DNA of 64,000 nt. Origin: a phage. Each line of letters starts with the position of its first letter. Position 1 is the stretch's first letter. Positions 36,946 to 52,613 of this stretch are shown one piece after another. A model generated the notes under the pieces. That model did no database searches. It was not told the origin of the DNA and was given only the letters and a program-made list of their open reading frames with translations. The translations under genes were made by a program, and so were the position numbers. The stretch is from the sequence record PZ295659.1; one strand, 5' to 3'.

Positions 36946-37947
36946 TTATTTCAGTAAAGTAACTTCAGAGATTTCCTCCCAACCATCTTTATCAGTTGAA
37001 ATAAAATCTGCTACATAAAGAGCCGTACGTAATGATACATTGCGAAGACGAGATACGTTAGCCTTCATCCAGGACAATGCTTTATACGTTTCTGCATCTG
37101 TCAGACCACGTTTCTGCATCATGTCAGTAGATAATATTACATCTTCAACTCGAACCATAATCTCTTCATTAGAGTGTACTCCAAGGTCGAGATACACTGA
37201 ACGAGATACTAAAGCTTGAAGGTGTGGGGCAAGTTTCGAACCGCGTTCTAACTCTTTATCGATATCAACGTTTGTAATGAAAACGATAGTACCTTCAAAC
37301 TCAAATTCTTTATCAATACCCTTATCATCGAGATAAGATGACGCAGTGCTCCAGCAAACTTTGCGTTTATCTCCGGTATCTAATGCTGCTTTAAGAAGGT
37401 TCAAGATGTCCATATCTGAGAATACGTCAACGTCGTCGATTAAGAGAACGCTGTCTGCATCACGGTTGAGCCAAAGTTGTTCGTAAAGACCAATACCAGA
37501 GATTTTACCATTAATGCTTTTGTATTTGATGAAACCGTTATCATTAGCATTATTAAGCGCTTTATCCAGAGAATACGTCTTACCAATACCTGCTGCACCT
37601 GAAATAATGAGTGAACGAATTTTGCCATCGATAATGCCATTCGTCATCATGTTCATTACTTTAAAGCGTTTGTTGATACGAGTTTTCATATCTTCAGTGC
37701 TTTCAACAACTGCAACTGGTGATGTCTCAGCTCCTTCCATTATGATGTCTGATTTGAAGACCCATACTCCACGTTCAGAACCATCGATCATAACGAAAAT
37801 TTTACCGTCACCTAAGTGGGAACATTCAGGATTAAGCTTTGCCGGGAACCATGTCTTTGTGGCAACATAAGAACCAGAGATTTCGTTATTACGATAGATA
37901 CCTTTTTTGATTTGAACGTTGAACATTTTATTCTCCAATTTACTCAT
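36946..37947 (-). CDS. P-loop ATPase (AAA-like)
   Basis: 333 aa; Walker A ISGAAGIGKT, Walker B-like VLLIDDVD. Confidence 0.55.
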   Translation of the reverse strand: MSKLENKMFNVQIKKGIYRNNEISGSYVATKTWFPAKLNPECSHLGDGKIFVMIDGSERGVWVFKSDIIMEGAETSPVAVVESTEDMKTRINKRFKVMNMMTNGIIDGKIRSLIISGAAGIGKTYSLDKALNNANDNGFIKYKSINGKISGIGLYEQLWLNRDADSVLLIDDVDVFSDMDILNLLKAALDTGDKRKVCWSTASSYLDDKGIDKEFEFEGTIVFITNVDIDKELERGSKLAPHLQALVSRSVYLDLGVHSNEEIMVRVEDVILSTDMMQKRGLTDAETYKALSWMKANVSRLRNVSLRTALYVADFISTDKDGWEEISEVTLLK

Positions 37948-38271: not shown

Positions 38272-38301
38272 TACTTTTTAAAAATATTTTGACCCCCTAA
38301 A

Positions 38302-38315
38302 GGGCCCGAAGGCCC
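38302..38315 (-). terminator. GC hairpin 3' of NTase-like gene (weak terminator)
   Basis: gggcc-cgaa-ggccc directly after stop codon; short U-tract only. Confidence 0.35.
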
Positions 38316-38318
38316 TTA

Positions 38319-39308
38319 TCATTTATAGTATGAATTGTGGTTTTCTAAGTAGACTTGCTCAAGGAAGTCATCCCAGAAACTCATATCTACTTTTTGCTGC
38401 ATACCATTCTTGGCAGCTTGTTCTGATGCTTGTTCAACTTGGTCAACGATATCTTCTAGGAATTCTTGTACAGTTTTAAATGTATGTTTACCAAGCTTAA
38501 CATCGAGAATAAATGGAGCATCCTGAAGTGGGTAAACCAGGTCGCCTGTTTTGTAAATTTCCAATAATTGAAGTCCACCACGACATGCATGACTCAATGC
38601 TTTCCAGTCAATACCTTCGTTAGCTTCTGCCTTACGAGCACGTTCACCATAGTTCTCTTCCAGTTTAACTAGGATGGCATTGAACTCTTTATTGGTTAAC
38701 GTGTCTTGGAATTTACGGTCTAACAGATTATAGAATGTTTGCTTACCTGTTTTCTCGTTTTCAGTTTCAACCCACGAAGCAAATTCACCTACAGGCAGAA
38801 CATTCTTCATATGTGATAAACGAATTACTGCACCATTATCAAAGTATTGTCCCCATTCGTTAGAACGTTTAAGGGCTTGACGAAGAACAGCCAGTCGAGA
38901 ACCCTTGACACCGTATTTAGAAGCTTGCTTACGGACATACCCTAAATAAGATTTCATGTTAGTAGTATAGAAACGAGACCTGTTATCTTGAATATACTTC
39001 CATACATCAGGCAAATCAGATTTAACTACTAAACTTGGTGGAGTGTGAAGCATATCTAATGCGACGGTTTCACCATCCGCAGCTAGTTTAAAGAAATATT
39101 TGAGACTATACAACTCATGGTCAACGTCGTCTTTTGTGTTCTTAGAAGATGTGTTATTCGTGTTCTTGCTCATGTGTTCTTTAACGTTACCGGTCAAGAT
39201 GTCACGAGCATGAGGGACATAAATTTCTTTAAAATCAACGTCAGATTCAGGAGTAGACGTTCCATAAAGGTGGCTACCAAAGTAGCCTTTCATAATTGTT
39301 TTCATCAT
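38319..39308 (-). CDS. Pol-beta-superfamily nucleotidyltransferase-fold protein
   Basis: 329 aa; N-terminal YFGSHLYGTSTPESDVDF (GS...DxD NTase motif). Confidence 0.55.
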   Translation of the reverse strand: MMKTIMKGYFGSHLYGTSTPESDVDFKEIYVPHARDILTGNVKEHMSKNTNNTSSKNTKDDVDHELYSLKYFFKLAADGETVALDMLHTPPSLVVKSDLPDVWKYIQDNRSRFYTTNMKSYLGYVRKQASKYGVKGSRLAVLRQALKRSNEWGQYFDNGAVIRLSHMKNVLPVGEFASWVETENEKTGKQTFYNLLDRKFQDTLTNKEFNAILVKLEENYGERARKAEANEGIDWKALSHACRGGLQLLEIYKTGDLVYPLQDAPFILDVKLGKHTFKTVQEFLEDIVDQVEQASEQAAKNGMQQKVDMSFWDDFLEQVYLENHNSYYK

Positions 39309-39778
39309 TTAGCCTTATATTCAAGAGTAGGACAGACTTTTTCTTTACGAGCTTTAAGGTATTCGCCTATTAATGATTTCTTACGTTCAATAGGCTCAAG
39401 TCCATTTTTAATTCGTTCTTGGTTTTGCGCAATGAGCTCAATTTCTTTATAATATTTTCTGTCGTTATATTTGTCTAACAACCAAGACGGACCAATTATC
39501 AACCCGGCAGAAATAAAAGCCATGACTGATACCATTAAAATGCCTACGCCAATTGAGGCTGGAACTAATGTCCATAGACTGCTAAAAACAAAGAATCTAG
39601 TTAAAATTTCCTGGCCAATGATTACGACTGCTGCTAAAATAGCAAATCCGATAATTGAAACAGACAATACCGGGATTAACGTTTTCCAAAAATAAGCACA
39701 CAACGTTTTAGGGCGATTCCATGTACTATTGAACGCGGCATAAATTTTAAAGTGCCAAGAGTTTTCATTGATAATCAT
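39305..39778 (-). CDS. polytopic membrane protein
   Basis: 157 aa, 3-4 predicted TM helices; stop overlaps NTase-like gene start. Confidence 0.55.
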   Translation of the reverse strand: MIINENSWHFKIYAAFNSTWNRPKTLCAYFWKTLIPVLSVSIIGFAILAAVVIIGQEILTRFFVFSSLWTLVPASIGVGILMVSVMAFISAGLIIGPSWLLDKYNDRKYYKEIELIAQNQERIKNGLEPIERKKSLIGEYLKARKEKVCPTLEYKAK

Positions 39779-39787
39779 AATAATTCC

Positions 39788-40330
39788 TTATTTCAAAGTC
39801 GGGATAATGGAATCAAGATAAGCTTTAAGAGCAACTGCTTCATCTTTGTCTAATGTAACGATATGTTGACGAAGGTCATCAATTTGACGAATAACTACGA
39901 CATCACCATCTTCATAAGAAGGATTAACGCCTAGGACTGTTGTATAGTCAGGGCGGTCCTGATTTGTAATAAAAGCATTACGGCATTTAGCCCATTGAAG
40001 TTTGGCCTTTTTGGCTGTTTCAGATTCCACGAATTCTTTCACCTTAGTGACGAATGTTTTCCAATTATTAATAGAAAAACATTCGTCTTCAGTTTCGATA
40101 TTAACCCCACTATAAAGTCCACGATAAAAACGAACTTGAAGGTCTTCGTCAATGTTAATTACAGATGCATGGCCCGGTGGATTGAGTTTCAAAATCTTGT
40201 CCAGTTCCATAGGAAGAATAGTAACCGCATCATCTTCTTGCGTCAGAACGTAAGCACAACCACGTTTTTCTATACATAAATCACCAAACAACTCAGTCGT
40301 TTCAATTACAGTTTTCATATTATTCACCAA
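39788..40330 (-). CDS. hypothetical protein
   Basis: 180-aa ORF. Confidence 0.5.
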   Translation of the reverse strand: MVNNMKTVIETTELFGDLCIEKRGCAYVLTQEDDAVTILPMELDKILKLNPPGHASVINIDEDLQVRFYRGLYSGVNIETEDECFSINNWKTFVTKVKEFVESETAKKAKLQWAKCRNAFITNQDRPDYTTVLGVNPSYEDGDVVVIRQIDDLRQHIVTLDKDEAVALKAYLDSIIPTLK

Positions 40331-51656: not shown

Positions 51657-52613
51657 TTATTTGAAAGGTTTCACCATATGAAAATTTTCTTTAAACCGTT
51701 TGATGTAATCATCATGTCCTAAGCTTTGGTACATACTTACTACTTTGCTGTAGTTTTCCCAGGCGTATTCACGGAACCAACCGGAGGTGATGCTTGTACA
51801 GACTTTTTCCAATGCCATCATGAAACTGGCTTCAGGATTAATTTTAAAGTCATTAGGAATCTGAGAACGTTCTAATGCTAGTACACATGATTCTTCATAT
51901 ACACCGGCCAATTTGACCATTTCTGGTAAAGATTCGAACTTCTCGCGTGAGGTCATGACTTCAGAACCGTCTTTCATATAAAATGTATATGCTGGACGGT
52001 CTGTTAGTGCAATGGCTTCATGAATAGTATCATGGTCATATGTATAGATGTCATCTTTAAAGAACGCACTTTTAGAAGTGTCAAGAACTGGGTGAGCATA
52101 GTTCAAGGTTTCTTTCTGGCGTTTCAGCATAATTTCAGTAAGTTCATCGTTCAGTGTAACACCTTTACCACGAAGATACTGAATATGGTTCATAGTCTTT
52201 AAAAAGAATGGATTATTTTTCTTGAAACGATGAGACATCTTAATTGCAAGACATATCTCAGGAGTTGCCCAGTAAAACCCGTTCAAACGGTCTTTAGTCA
52301 AATTTTTCTTGGCGTATTTTAAAAGGTCATAAGAAGACGTGAAATCTTCAGGAGTGAGTTCACCGACTAATTCACGGACATTAGTGATTGCCGGAACAAT
52401 ATATGCTTCAAAATGAGTTTCGCGTCCATTATGGAAGCATTTGAAAACTTGGACATCAGGGTTATCTTGATGAACATATACACCCATCATTTGATTTTTG
52501 AACACATTCCAAGAACATTGGTCCGCAATAAAGTCCCAATCACTATTTTTGATAGCACTAGAATCAATAAGACCGTGATAGTGAAGTGCACGAGAACCAA
52601 TAACTAACATCAT
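51657..52613 (-). CDS. nucleotidyltransferase-fold-like protein
   Basis: 318 aa; N-terminal MMLVIGSRALHYHGLIDSSAIKNSDWDF resembles the GS...DxD start of 38319..39308. Confidence 0.45.
   Translation of the reverse strand: MMLVIGSRALHYHGLIDSSAIKNSDWDFIADQCSWNVFKNQMMGVYVHQDNPDVQVFKCFHNGRETHFEAYIVPAITNVRELVGELTPEDFTSSYDLLKYAKKNLTKDRLNGFYWATPEICLAIKMSHRFKKNNPFFLKTMNHIQYLRGKGVTLNDELTEIMLKRQKETLNYAHPVLDTSKSAFFKDDIYTYDHDTIHEAIALTDRPAYTFYMKDGSEVMTSREKFESLPEMVKLAGVYEESCVLALERSQIPNDFKINPEASFMMALEKVCTSITSGWFREYAWENYSKVVSMYQSLGHDDYIKRFKENFHMVKPFK

What the first reader, a model, noticed from the sequence alone, without database searches (positions are those of the whole stretch)
38319..39778. Nucleotidyltransferase-fold protein coupled to a polytopic membrane protein; possible paralog at 51657-52613
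The 329-aa protein begins with a GS-x10-DxD motif typical of Pol-beta-superfamily nucleotidyltransferases, a superfamily that includes cGAS-like signalling enzymes, and its start overlaps the stop of a 3-4 TM membrane protein. A second protein (51657-52613) starts with a similar MM..IGS...SDWDF pattern. NTase plus membrane protein pairs resemble minimal signalling or effector modules; in a phage this could be an anti-defense or host-takeover activity.
Basis: inference. Interest (0 to 1): 0.55.

Follow-up and report, generated by a model that had tools for sequence, protein, structure and literature searches.

The report
T-even phage RlaP-type RNA nucleotidyltransferase (NrdC.11)
The 329-residue protein is the RB69-group copy of phage T4 NrdC.11, a member of the described RlaP family of enzymes that add one or two nucleotides to damaged RNA ends; the membrane-protein gene next to it is a neighbour in only some phages, so the finding is real but largely ordinary.

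Summary
A 329-aa ORF (38319-39308, minus strand) carries G11-S12-x10-D23-x-D25, and its ATG overlaps (ATGA) the stop of a 157-aa membrane-protein ORF (39305-39778).

The window is a Mosigvirus (RB69-like T-even phage). The protein is the ortholog of T4 NrdC.11. It matches Pfam PF10127 RlaP above threshold and phrog_388 'nucleotidyltransferase'. A 2025 preprint shows that bacterial RlaP enzymes add 1-2 NMP to RNA 3'-OH ends, and it names T4 NrdC.11 as a family member.

Cellular homologs of the phage clade sit next to Pnkp/Hen1, a kinase-phosphatase-Rnl1-type ligase fusion, RtcA/RtcB and Ro60. This supports an RNA-repair role.

The cGAS/CBASS-like reading is not supported. There are no CD-NTase or defence-model matches. 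The membrane gene abuts the NTase in 13 of 80 related loci, lies 0.35-1.8 kb upstream in 32, and is absent in 35. In T4 the slot holds mobD.

The 'paralog' at 51657-52613 (RB69ORF134c, DUF7277+DUF7275) shows no detectable sequence relationship (hhalign below 1%). It does have an NTase fold of the MenT/ANT(2'') type, fused to a strongly conserved uncharacterised domain. That is the more open lead.

The parts
38319..39308 (-). Gene for the 329-aa RlaP-family nucleotidyltransferase, ortholog of T4 NrdC.11
   Evidence: Pfam PF10127 RlaP 48.5 bits, E 1.2e-12. phrog_388 'nucleotidyltransferase' E 2.4e-126. About 79% identical to Tequatrovirus (T4-group) NrdC.11 homologs and 80% to T4 NrdC.11 in the alignment; T4 NrdC.11 is annotated nucleotidyltransferase in RefSeq. 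The same gene is annotated nucleotidyltransferase in Shigella phage phi25-307.
39234..39278 (-). Codons for G11-S12...D23-x-D25, the NTP/metal-binding signature of Pol-beta NTases
   Evidence: Read directly. Invariant or at least 90% conserved in alignments A1 and A5.
39054..39122 (-). Codons D63 to D85, which hold the candidate third catalytic carboxylate (D63 before strand 65-68; D85 in ALDM)
   Evidence: Both positions are D in 9 and E in 1 of 10 phage homologs, and at least 90% conserved in 68 diverse relatives. Which one is catalytic was not resolved: the model has low confidence in this region.
39305..39778 (-). Gene for a 157-aa membrane protein (phrog_944): 2-3 TM segments, conserved N-terminal NxNSWH...P.TLC.YFW motif and C-terminal YLKARK.KVCP motif
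   Evidence: phrog_944 E 3.8e-52, with no Pfam, NCBIfam or PADLOC family. Hydropathy and charge. Conserved motifs seen in the 4-sequence alignment. Homologs in 1005 phage records.
39305..39308 (-). ATGA start/stop overlap between the membrane-protein gene and the NTase gene (translational coupling)
   Evidence: The same -4 overlap is present in 13 of 80 related viral loci.
38300..38317 (-). GC-rich hairpin with a UUCG loop (AAGGGCC-UUCG-GGCCCUU) immediately after the NTase stop, followed by a promoter-like site for the next gene
   Evidence: The terminator or stabiliser role is inferred, not tested.
51657..52613 (-). Second, unrelated NTase-fold protein (RB69ORF134c homolog): DUF7277 N-domain (G6 S7 D25 D27 E69) plus the highly conserved DUF7275 C-domain

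Best explanation
The 329-aa protein is the Mosigvirus ortholog of T4 NrdC.11, a phage-clade member of the RlaP (PF10127) family of Pol-beta-fold nucleotidyltransferases. [quoted passage not shown] It would use G11-S12 and the carboxylates D23, D25 and D63 or D85 to hold NTP and divalent metal, probably Mn2+. Its likely biological role is an accessory step of phage RNA (tRNA) repair. It would restore nucleotides that host ribotoxins such as wobble-excising anticodon nucleases remove, so that the phage's own polynucleotide kinase and RNA ligase 1, encoded elsewhere in the genome, can reseal a functional tRNA. That makes it a counter-defence enzyme that repairs RNA, not a signalling enzyme. Shown here: family membership, conserved catalytic residues, and the gene neighbourhoods. 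Inferred from relatives: the RNA substrate and the 1-2 nt addition. Hypothesis: the role against nucleotide-excising ribotoxins. The upstream membrane protein is co-translated with the NTase in this lineage, but it is a dispensable and movable neighbour, and its function is unknown.
For: The protein scores above the Pfam RlaP threshold, matches phrog_388, and is orthologous and syntenic with T4 nrdC.11. The catalytic signature is conserved across 68 relatives of 33-52% identity. The family is large: 3936 cluster representatives at E<=1e-3. Preprint PMC12776372 shows that two Pseudomonas RlaP enzymes label only RNA, need a 3'-OH, add 1-2 NMP, prefer Mn2+, and restore aminoacylation of a tRNA missing one anticodon-loop nucleotide. 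It places T4 NrdC.11 in cluster 5 of the PF10127 network. PMC7824862 records the prediction that RlaP restores nucleotides lost to RloC-type nucleases before ligation. New here: full-length cellular homologs of the phage clade (33-52% identity) lie directly beside bacterial Pnkp (L132, L154, L178), with a Hen1 gene two positions from the NTase in three loci. One lies beside a kinase-phosphatase-T4-Rnl1-type ligase fusion (L147). Others lie beside RtcA (2 loci), RtcB (1) and Ro60/TROVE (2), and 16 of 69 have a second, canonical RlaP immediately downstream. In Vibrio phage R16F the homolog overlaps a CCA-adding/repair enzyme gene. A 97.6%-identical relative of this phage encodes polynucleotide kinase and RNA ligase 1. 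The AF2 model has an N-terminal alpha/beta domain plus a C-terminal helical domain. Its weak structural matches include two-domain NTases (HalB, LinB, ANT(3'')(9), AAD(9), ANT(6)) and HEPN-type helical domains. This agrees with the published description of the PfRlaP structure.
Confidence: 0.6

Rival explanations
1. A minimal cGAS/CD-NTase-like signalling pair: the NTase makes a (cyclic) nucleotide second messenger that gates or is sensed by the co-translated membrane protein, as in CBASS with TM effectors.
For: ATGA translational coupling of a Pol-beta NTase and a small membrane protein. The same overlap is kept in 13 related loci spanning 68-99% identity.
Against: There are no PADLOC (CBASS and other defence) matches and no SMODS, Mab-21 or OAS Pfam match; the only significant family is RlaP. 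The membrane protein has no recognisable nucleotide-sensing domain. The NTase occurs without the membrane gene in 35 of 80 loci and with other genes between them in 32 of 80. T4 lacks the membrane gene. In Aeromonas phage G2 the two genes are more than 150 kb apart. Characterised RlaP enzymes extend RNA rather than cyclise NTPs.
Confidence: 0.03
2. The enzyme nucleotidylylates a protein or small molecule rather than RNA. Examples would be AMPylating and neutralising a host HEPN-type toxin as MntA antitoxins do, or modifying a metabolite or antibiotic-like compound as ANT/Lnu enzymes do.
For: The best weak structural neighbours include MNT antitoxins, HEPN domains, LinB, ANT(3'')(9), AAD(9) and ANT(6). 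The C-terminal half is not covered by the RlaP Pfam model. There is a marginal MntA motif hit.
Confidence: 0.12
3. The enzyme works on tRNA 3' (acceptor/CCA) ends rather than on anticodon-loop breaks. It would patch or tail tRNAs whose 3' ends were trimmed or blocked by host defences, alongside CCA-adding enzymes.
For: In Vibrio phage R16F the homolog overlaps a CCA-adding/repair enzyme gene. RlaP labelled full-length tRNA-sized and rRNA-sized species in total RNA.
Against: PfRlaP preferred the 3' end of the 5' half of a cleaved tRNA over the acceptor end when both were offered. The cellular neighbours are ligase/Pnkp/Hen1/RtcAB systems that seal internal breaks. The CCA association was seen in one phage only: among the 80 viral loci there was one weak CCA-like hit.
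Confidence: 0.15
4. The membrane protein and the NTase form a physical complex in the Mosigvirus/Dhakavirus/some-Tequatrovirus lineage. The complex would localise RNA repair to the inner membrane or regulate the NTase.
For: A conserved ATGA overlap in 13 loci across 68-99% NTase identity. A long charged cytoplasmic tail with the invariant YLKARK.KVCP motif could be a docking site. The membrane gene lies upstream on the same strand in 45 of 80 loci.
Against: Gene order in T-even early regions is conserved by descent, so synteny alone is weak evidence. Small ORFs are inserted between the two genes in 32 loci. The membrane gene has been lost (T4), frameshifted (HMD-9) or relocated (Aeromonas G2) without loss of the NTase.
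Confidence: 0.1

Closest known systems
T4 NrdC.11 (T4p095, NP_049709, 336 aa)
   Same: It is the ortholog: 80% identical in the alignment, in the same position between nrdC.10 and the mobD.1 (y05I) homolog, on the same strand, in the same early region. It is annotated nucleotidyltransferase.
   Different: T4 has the HNH homing endonuclease gene mobD immediately upstream, where this phage has the membrane-protein gene. The window protein lacks a 7-residue stretch in the variable region around residues 150-170.
[quoted passage not shown]
   Same: An above-threshold Pfam match, the same GS/DxD/D catalytic signature, an N-terminal NTase domain plus a C-terminal helical domain, and cellular homologs beside RNA ligases, Pnkp, Hen1 and RtcAB.
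   Different: Only the N-terminal 140 residues align to the Pfam model. The phage clade is about 320-340 aa, against about 250-290 aa for the canonical RlaP found next to it in 16 cellular loci. It has an extra beta-hairpin region (residues 177-201 of the model) and a conserved KNT.DD.D loop. It is not adjacent to an RNA ligase in this phage. Its activity is untested.
CD-NTases / cGAS of CBASS with transmembrane effectors
   Same: The Pol-beta-superfamily GS...DxD motif, and a small membrane protein encoded next to the NTase.
   Different: No profile match to CD-NTase/SMODS or to any PADLOC model, no sensor domain in the membrane protein, and a pairing that is not conserved.
MenT / AbiEii / ANT(2'') / Lnu-type NTases (relevant to the second protein, 51657-52613)
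   Different: No sequence-profile membership: Pfam files it as DUF7277, not DUF1814/AbiEii. It is fused to DUF7275, a domain with many invariant charged residues and no known relative. It is phage-encoded with no adjacent antitoxin-like gene annotated.

Membership tests
RlaP (Pfam PF10127) | Sequence matches the family HMM above the curated gathering score | tested here: met
   48.5 bits against a cutoff of 23, E 1.2e-12, residues 7-140 on profile positions 23-147 of 249. All database relatives carry the precomputed PF10127 assignment.
RlaP (Pfam PF10127) | Pol-beta NTase catalytic signature: G-S, DxD and a third carboxylate | tested here: met
   G11 and S12 are invariant. D23, D25, D63 and D85 are at least 90% conserved in 68 diverse relatives. 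Which of D63 or D85 is the third ligand is unresolved.
RlaP (Pfam PF10127) | Two-domain fold: N-terminal NTase domain, C-terminal helical domain, and a terminal helix packing back (per the PfRlaP crystal structure) | tested here: inconclusive
RlaP (Pfam PF10127) | Gene neighbourhood with RNA ligases or RNA-repair genes | tested here: inconclusive
   Not met in the window: the neighbours are a membrane protein, the y05I/MobD.1 homolog and small ORFs. Pnkp and Rnl1 genes lie about 80 kb away in the 97.6%-identical relative. Met for cellular homologs of the same clade: Pnkp, Hen1, an Rnl1-type fusion, RtcA, RtcB and Ro60.
RlaP (Pfam PF10127) | Adds 1-2 NMP to the RNA 3'-OH, Mn2+-preferring, with no activity on DNA or protein | not testable with these tools
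   Known only for PfRlaP and PaRlaP.
CD-NTase / CBASS | cGAS/DncV-like NTase recognised by CD-NTase (SMODS) or PADLOC CBASS models | tested here: not met
   No PADLOC family at E<=1. No SMODS, Mab-21 or OAS hit in Pfam at E<=0.1.
CD-NTase / CBASS | Effector co-conserved in the operon with the NTase | tested here: not met
   The membrane gene abuts the NTase in 13 of 80 loci, is separated from it in 32 and is absent in 35. It is absent from T4 and more than 150 kb away in Aeromonas phage G2.
MNT (MntA) antitoxin of MNT-HEPN systems | Match to the MntA/minimal NTase family model | tested here: not met
   NF047752 scores 12.9 bits against a cutoff of 60, over 18 residues around the GS motif only.
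CCA-adding enzymes / poly(A) polymerases (class II NTases) | Match to the PolyA_pol head-domain family | tested here: not met
   No such Pfam hit at E<=0.1.
Paralogy of 51657-52613 with the NrdC.11 homolog | Detectable sequence or profile similarity beyond the superfamily motif | tested here: not met
   BLASTP E 5.7. hhalign probability 0.23% over 12 columns and 0.47% over 25 columns. Different Pfam and PHROG families.
MenT/AbiEii-type NTases (for 51657-52613) | NTase fold of this type with catalytic G-S, DxD and a third acid | tested here: met
MenT/AbiEii-type NTases (for 51657-52613) | Sequence membership in DUF1814/AbiEii, and pairing with an antitoxin | tested here: not met
   Pfam gives only DUF7277 and DUF7275, for all 52 members. 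No antitoxin-like neighbour is annotated in RB69.

The most novel reading that the evidence does not exclude
In the Mosigvirus/Dhakavirus/part-Tequatrovirus lineage, the translationally coupled membrane protein is a true partner. Through its conserved cytoplasmic YLKARK.KVCP tail it would recruit or regulate the RlaP-type NTase at the inner membrane, for example to meet imported tRNase toxins or membrane-associated defence nucleases where they act. That would make it a membrane-tethered RNA-repair module not described before. A separate open lead is RB69ORF134c (51657-52613), which may be a phage-borne MenT-like tRNA-modifying NTase fused to a new catalytic domain.
Probability: 0.08. Interest if true: 0.6.

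Novelty: already known. Interest (0 to 1): 0.25.

Why it matters
T4 was the first system in which RNA repair was shown to defeat a host anticodon nuclease. Hosts then appear to have answered with nucleases that also remove a nucleotide, such as RloC. An RlaP-type enzyme in T-even phages is the obvious candidate for the phage's next move. That idea is already in the literature, and the enzyme family has been characterised in bacteria, so this finding adds no new kind of system. Its remaining value is practical. The phage-clade enzyme has never been assayed. Its C-terminal half differs from the characterised RlaPs. The cellular neighbourhoods found here (Pnkp/Hen1, an Rnl1-type fusion, tandem RlaP pairs) give concrete partners to test.

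Tried and rejected
1. Sequence searches of the PDB with the single protein, a 10-sequence profile and a 68-sequence profile found no solved relative. The PfRlaP crystal structure could therefore not be used for a direct comparison.

3. The first homologous-protein run, with the single protein, returned only 98-100% identical sequences and was useless for a diverse alignment.

4. The CBASS/cGAS idea was rejected on the PADLOC and Pfam results and on the non-conserved pairing.

5. The MntA, CCA-adding and OAS families were rejected on missing or sub-threshold matches.

6. Paralogy of the two NTases was rejected.

8. A weak RNase L KEN-domain hit for DUF7275 (E 0.14) was judged chance.

9. The literature search found no paper on DUF7275 or DUF7277, and no functional study of NrdC.11.

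Full report
**What is there.** On the minus strand, ORF 39305-39778 encodes a 157-aa protein and ORF 38319-39308 encodes a 329-aa protein. The upstream gene ends GCT AAA TGA, and the downstream ATG overlaps that stop as ATGA. Both genes have an AAGG element a few bases upstream. Directly after its stop lies a GC-rich hairpin with a UUCG loop (38300-38317), followed by a promoter-like site for the next gene. So the pair ends a transcription or translation unit.

**Where the window comes from.** The 3.5-kb region is 96-98% identical to Mosigvirus genomes, meaning RB69-like T-even phages such as Shigella phage phi25-307. Gene order matches the T4 nrdC-tk early region. It runs from thymidine kinase and rI through small ORFs and the y05I/MobD.1 homolog (39788-40330), then the membrane protein, the NTase, small ORFs, and the NrdC.10 ATPase homolog at 36946-37947. 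The 329-aa protein is the ortholog of T4 NrdC.11. It is 80% identical to T4 NrdC.11 in the alignment, and NrdC.11 is annotated 'nucleotidyltransferase' in RefSeq. Homologs occur in 1536 phage records.

**Family assignment.**
- The protein scores 48.5 bits (E 1.2e-12, cutoff 23) on Pfam PF10127 'RlaP, RNA repair pathway DNA polymerase beta family', and E 2.4e-126 on phrog_388 'nucleotidyltransferase'.
- In ten phage homologs down to 27% identity, G11, S12, D23 and D25 are invariant, and D63 and D85 are always acidic.
- A full HMMER scan of 1.84 billion cluster representatives found 3936 relatives, 1151 of them at E<=1e-30. The best 150 are mostly full-length proteins of 305-390 aa, apart from three fragments.
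- In 68 of these relatives (33-52% identity), G11, S12, Y15, G16, G79, Q128, Y132, R223, D234, H240, R243, P260 and K271 are invariant. D23, D25, D61, D63 and D85 are at least 90% conserved.
- The motif is therefore a real, selected active-site signature and not a chance pattern.

**What the family does.**
- A December 2025 preprint (PMC12776372) characterised two Pseudomonas RlaP enzymes. Among E. coli macromolecules only RNA is labelled. A 3'-OH is required, one or two NMP are added, Mn2+ is preferred, and DNA and protein are not substrates. The 3' end of the 5' half of a cleaved tRNA is preferred.
- In the same study, treatment with RlaP before ligation partly restored aminoacylation of a tRNA that lacked one anticodon-loop nucleotide.
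- The crystal structure is an N-terminal NTase domain plus a C-terminal helical domain.
- The authors place T4 NrdC.11 in cluster 5 of the PF10127 network and describe its function as unknown.
- Iyer et al. (PMC7824862) state the earlier prediction: RlaP restores nucleotides removed by RloC-type nucleases before ligation. They also report that its distribution in jumbo phages mirrors that of RNA ligases.

**Evidence specific to the phage clade.** The Pfam model covers only residues 7-140, so I asked whether the phage-type full-length protein is itself tied to RNA repair. A scan of one genome per prokaryotic species found 156 relatives, and 80 loci were kept (33-52% identity). They lie in Desulfobacterales, Nitrospirota, Alphaproteobacteria and archaea, many on megabase contigs. 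Pfam scans of the neighbouring ORFs showed the following:
- The gene immediately downstream is a second, canonical RlaP in 16 of 69 loci.
- Bacterial Pnkp (kinase-phosphatase-ligase) lies directly upstream in L132, L154 and L178, and a Hen1 gene lies two positions from the NTase in three loci.
- A kinase-phosphatase-T4-Rnl1-type ligase fusion lies directly upstream in L147.
- RtcA is adjacent in two loci, RtcB lies two genes away in one, and Ro60/TROVE is nearby in two.

These are rare genes, so their recurrence next to the phage-type NTase supports an RNA-repair role for this clade specifically. Two further observations fit. In Vibrio phage R16F the homolog overlaps a CCA-adding/repair enzyme gene. 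The close relative phi25-307 encodes polynucleotide kinase and RNA ligase 1 about 80 kb away, so the ligation partners exist in this phage, though they are not linked to the NTase gene.

**The membrane protein.**
- It matches phrog_944 ('membrane protein') and nothing in Pfam, NCBIfam or PADLOC.
- Hydropathy shows hydrophobic blocks at 32-55 and 62-101, which means 2 or possibly 3 TM segments rather than 3-4. A 56-residue tail with 15 K/R and 10 D/E follows. Conserved motifs are NxNSWH...P.TLC.YFW at the N-terminus and YLKARK.KVCP at the C-terminus.
- Among 80 IMG/VR loci encoding NrdC.11 homologs (40-99% identity), a homolog of the membrane gene abuts the NTase with the same -4 overlap in 13. 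It lies 349-1833 nt upstream, with other ORFs between, in 32. It is absent within the available upstream flank in 35.
- T4 has the homing endonuclease mobD in that slot and no trace of the membrane gene. Tequatrovirus HMD-9 has a frameshifted copy. In Aeromonas phage G2 the two genes are more than 150 kb apart.
- The membrane protein is found in 1005 phage records, against 1536 for the NTase.
- The coupling is real in this lineage, but the NTase plainly works without this neighbour. Shared descent of gene order in T-even early regions explains the synteny.

**Rejection of the signalling interpretation.** Nothing links the NTase to CD-NTases, OAS, MntA or CCA-adding enzymes beyond the superfamily motif. 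The membrane protein has no sensor domain, and the pairing is not conserved. I rate a CBASS-like module at about 3%.

**The proposed paralog (51657-52613).**
- This 318-aa protein is 98.7% identical to RB69ORF134c. It lies in the e.2-e.3 variable region and consists of Pfam DUF7277 plus DUF7275.
- BLASTP and two profile-profile comparisons with the NrdC.11 family show no relationship beyond 12-25 columns around GS..DxD, at 0.2-0.5% probability. It is not a paralog in any detectable sense.
- The C-terminal DUF7275 is unusually conserved. It carries K125, H128, R129, H174, D193-H194-D195, H198, E240, E241, E248, R249 and the block KVCTSITSGWFRE, and it has no identified relative. No paper mentions either DUF.
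- This is a phage MenT-like NTase fused to an unknown, probably catalytic, domain. It is a more open question than the main finding.

**Verdict.**
- The gene is a known, already annotated member of a family whose biochemistry was recently described and for which T4 NrdC.11 is explicitly cited.
- The best-supported mechanism is untemplated 1-2-nt addition to broken RNA 3' ends as an accessory to phage Pnkp/Rnl1 tRNA repair. I put that at about 0.6. The enzymatic class is more secure than the biological role.
- No phage-clade enzyme has been assayed, and T4 tolerates loss of the nrdC.11-mobD.3 segment on laboratory hosts.
- Interest is low to moderate (0.25).

Noticed in passing
window 51657-52613 (-): RB69ORF134c homolog: a confidently modelled MenT/ANT(2'')-like NTase domain (G6 S7 D25 D27 E69) fused to DUF7275. 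DUF7275 has many invariant charged residues (H128, H174, D193-H194-D195, H198, E240/E241, E248-R249, KVCTSITSGWFRE) and no known relative or literature. It may be a metal-dependent hydrolase, but this is untested.
   Followed up: partly
L102-L181 (cellular loci), e.g. L154 5001-5984 + 5981-6802; L125; L130; L165: In 16 of 69 bacterial or archaeal loci, the NrdC.11-type (about 320 aa) RlaP is immediately followed, often with overlapping stop and start, by a second, canonical (about 255-290 aa) RlaP gene. This tandem pair of two different RlaP NTases is sometimes placed downstream of Hen1-Pnkp. It suggests the two NTases act together, which I did not find described in the papers I read.
   Followed up: partly
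L147 2760-4994 (+): A single 745-aa protein fuses a P-loop kinase, a calcineurin-type phosphatase and a T4 Rnl1-type RNA ligase domain. It lies directly upstream of an NrdC.11-type NTase in an uncultured Rickettsiales MAG, so T4 Pnkp-like and Rnl1-like functions sit in one polypeptide next to the NTase.
   Followed up: no
window 38300-38317 (-): A stable GGGCC-UUCG-GGCCC hairpin lies right after the NTase stop codon, followed by UUU and then a promoter-like TGTACA...TATTAT site (38270-38243). It is the T4-style UUCG-tetraloop hairpin that could act as a terminator or mRNA stabiliser.
   Followed up: partly
L002 4541-5004 (Escherichia phage HMD-9); L003 12430-13209 (T4 mobD): The membrane-protein gene upstream of nrdC.11 is frameshifted and unannotated in Tequatrovirus HMD-9. 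In T4 the HNH homing endonuclease mobD occupies its place. This is an example of a homing-endonuclease insertion site coinciding with loss of a neighbouring gene.
   Followed up: partly
phage GenBank records listed: Many GenBank phage records label NrdC.11, NrdC.10 and other nrdC.x homologs as 'thioredoxin'; one NrdC.11 homolog is labelled 'putative HNH homing endonuclease' and one RB69ORF134c homolog 'prohead assembly scaffold protein'. The 'thioredoxin' label has evidently propagated from the gene name nrdC.N, and UniRef cluster names carry it as well.
   Followed up: no
L011 1144-3418 (Vibrio phage vB_VpaM_R16F): A distant NrdC.11 homolog (29% identity) overlaps the 3' end of a gene annotated 'multifunctional CCA addition/repair protein'. 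The two tRNA-end NTases sit in one operon between the portal and terminase genes.
   Followed up: no
window 36946-37947 (-): The NrdC.10 homolog is a 333-aa P-loop protein (GAAGIGKT Walker A) with only sub-threshold AAA_22, AAA_16 and STAND NTPase Pfam hits, and it matches phrog_1250 of unknown function. It is conserved next to nrdC.11 in T4, MX01, a Klebsiella phage (Lion_ER11) and an Acinetobacter phage (Tonic).
   Followed up: no
L060 2709-3592; L074 2928-3416 and 5288-5737: Some T4-like phage contigs carry two copies of the phrog_944 membrane-protein gene, in tandem in L060 or flanking the NTase gene in L074. This suggests the small membrane gene duplicates and moves independently of the NTase.
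   Followed up: no
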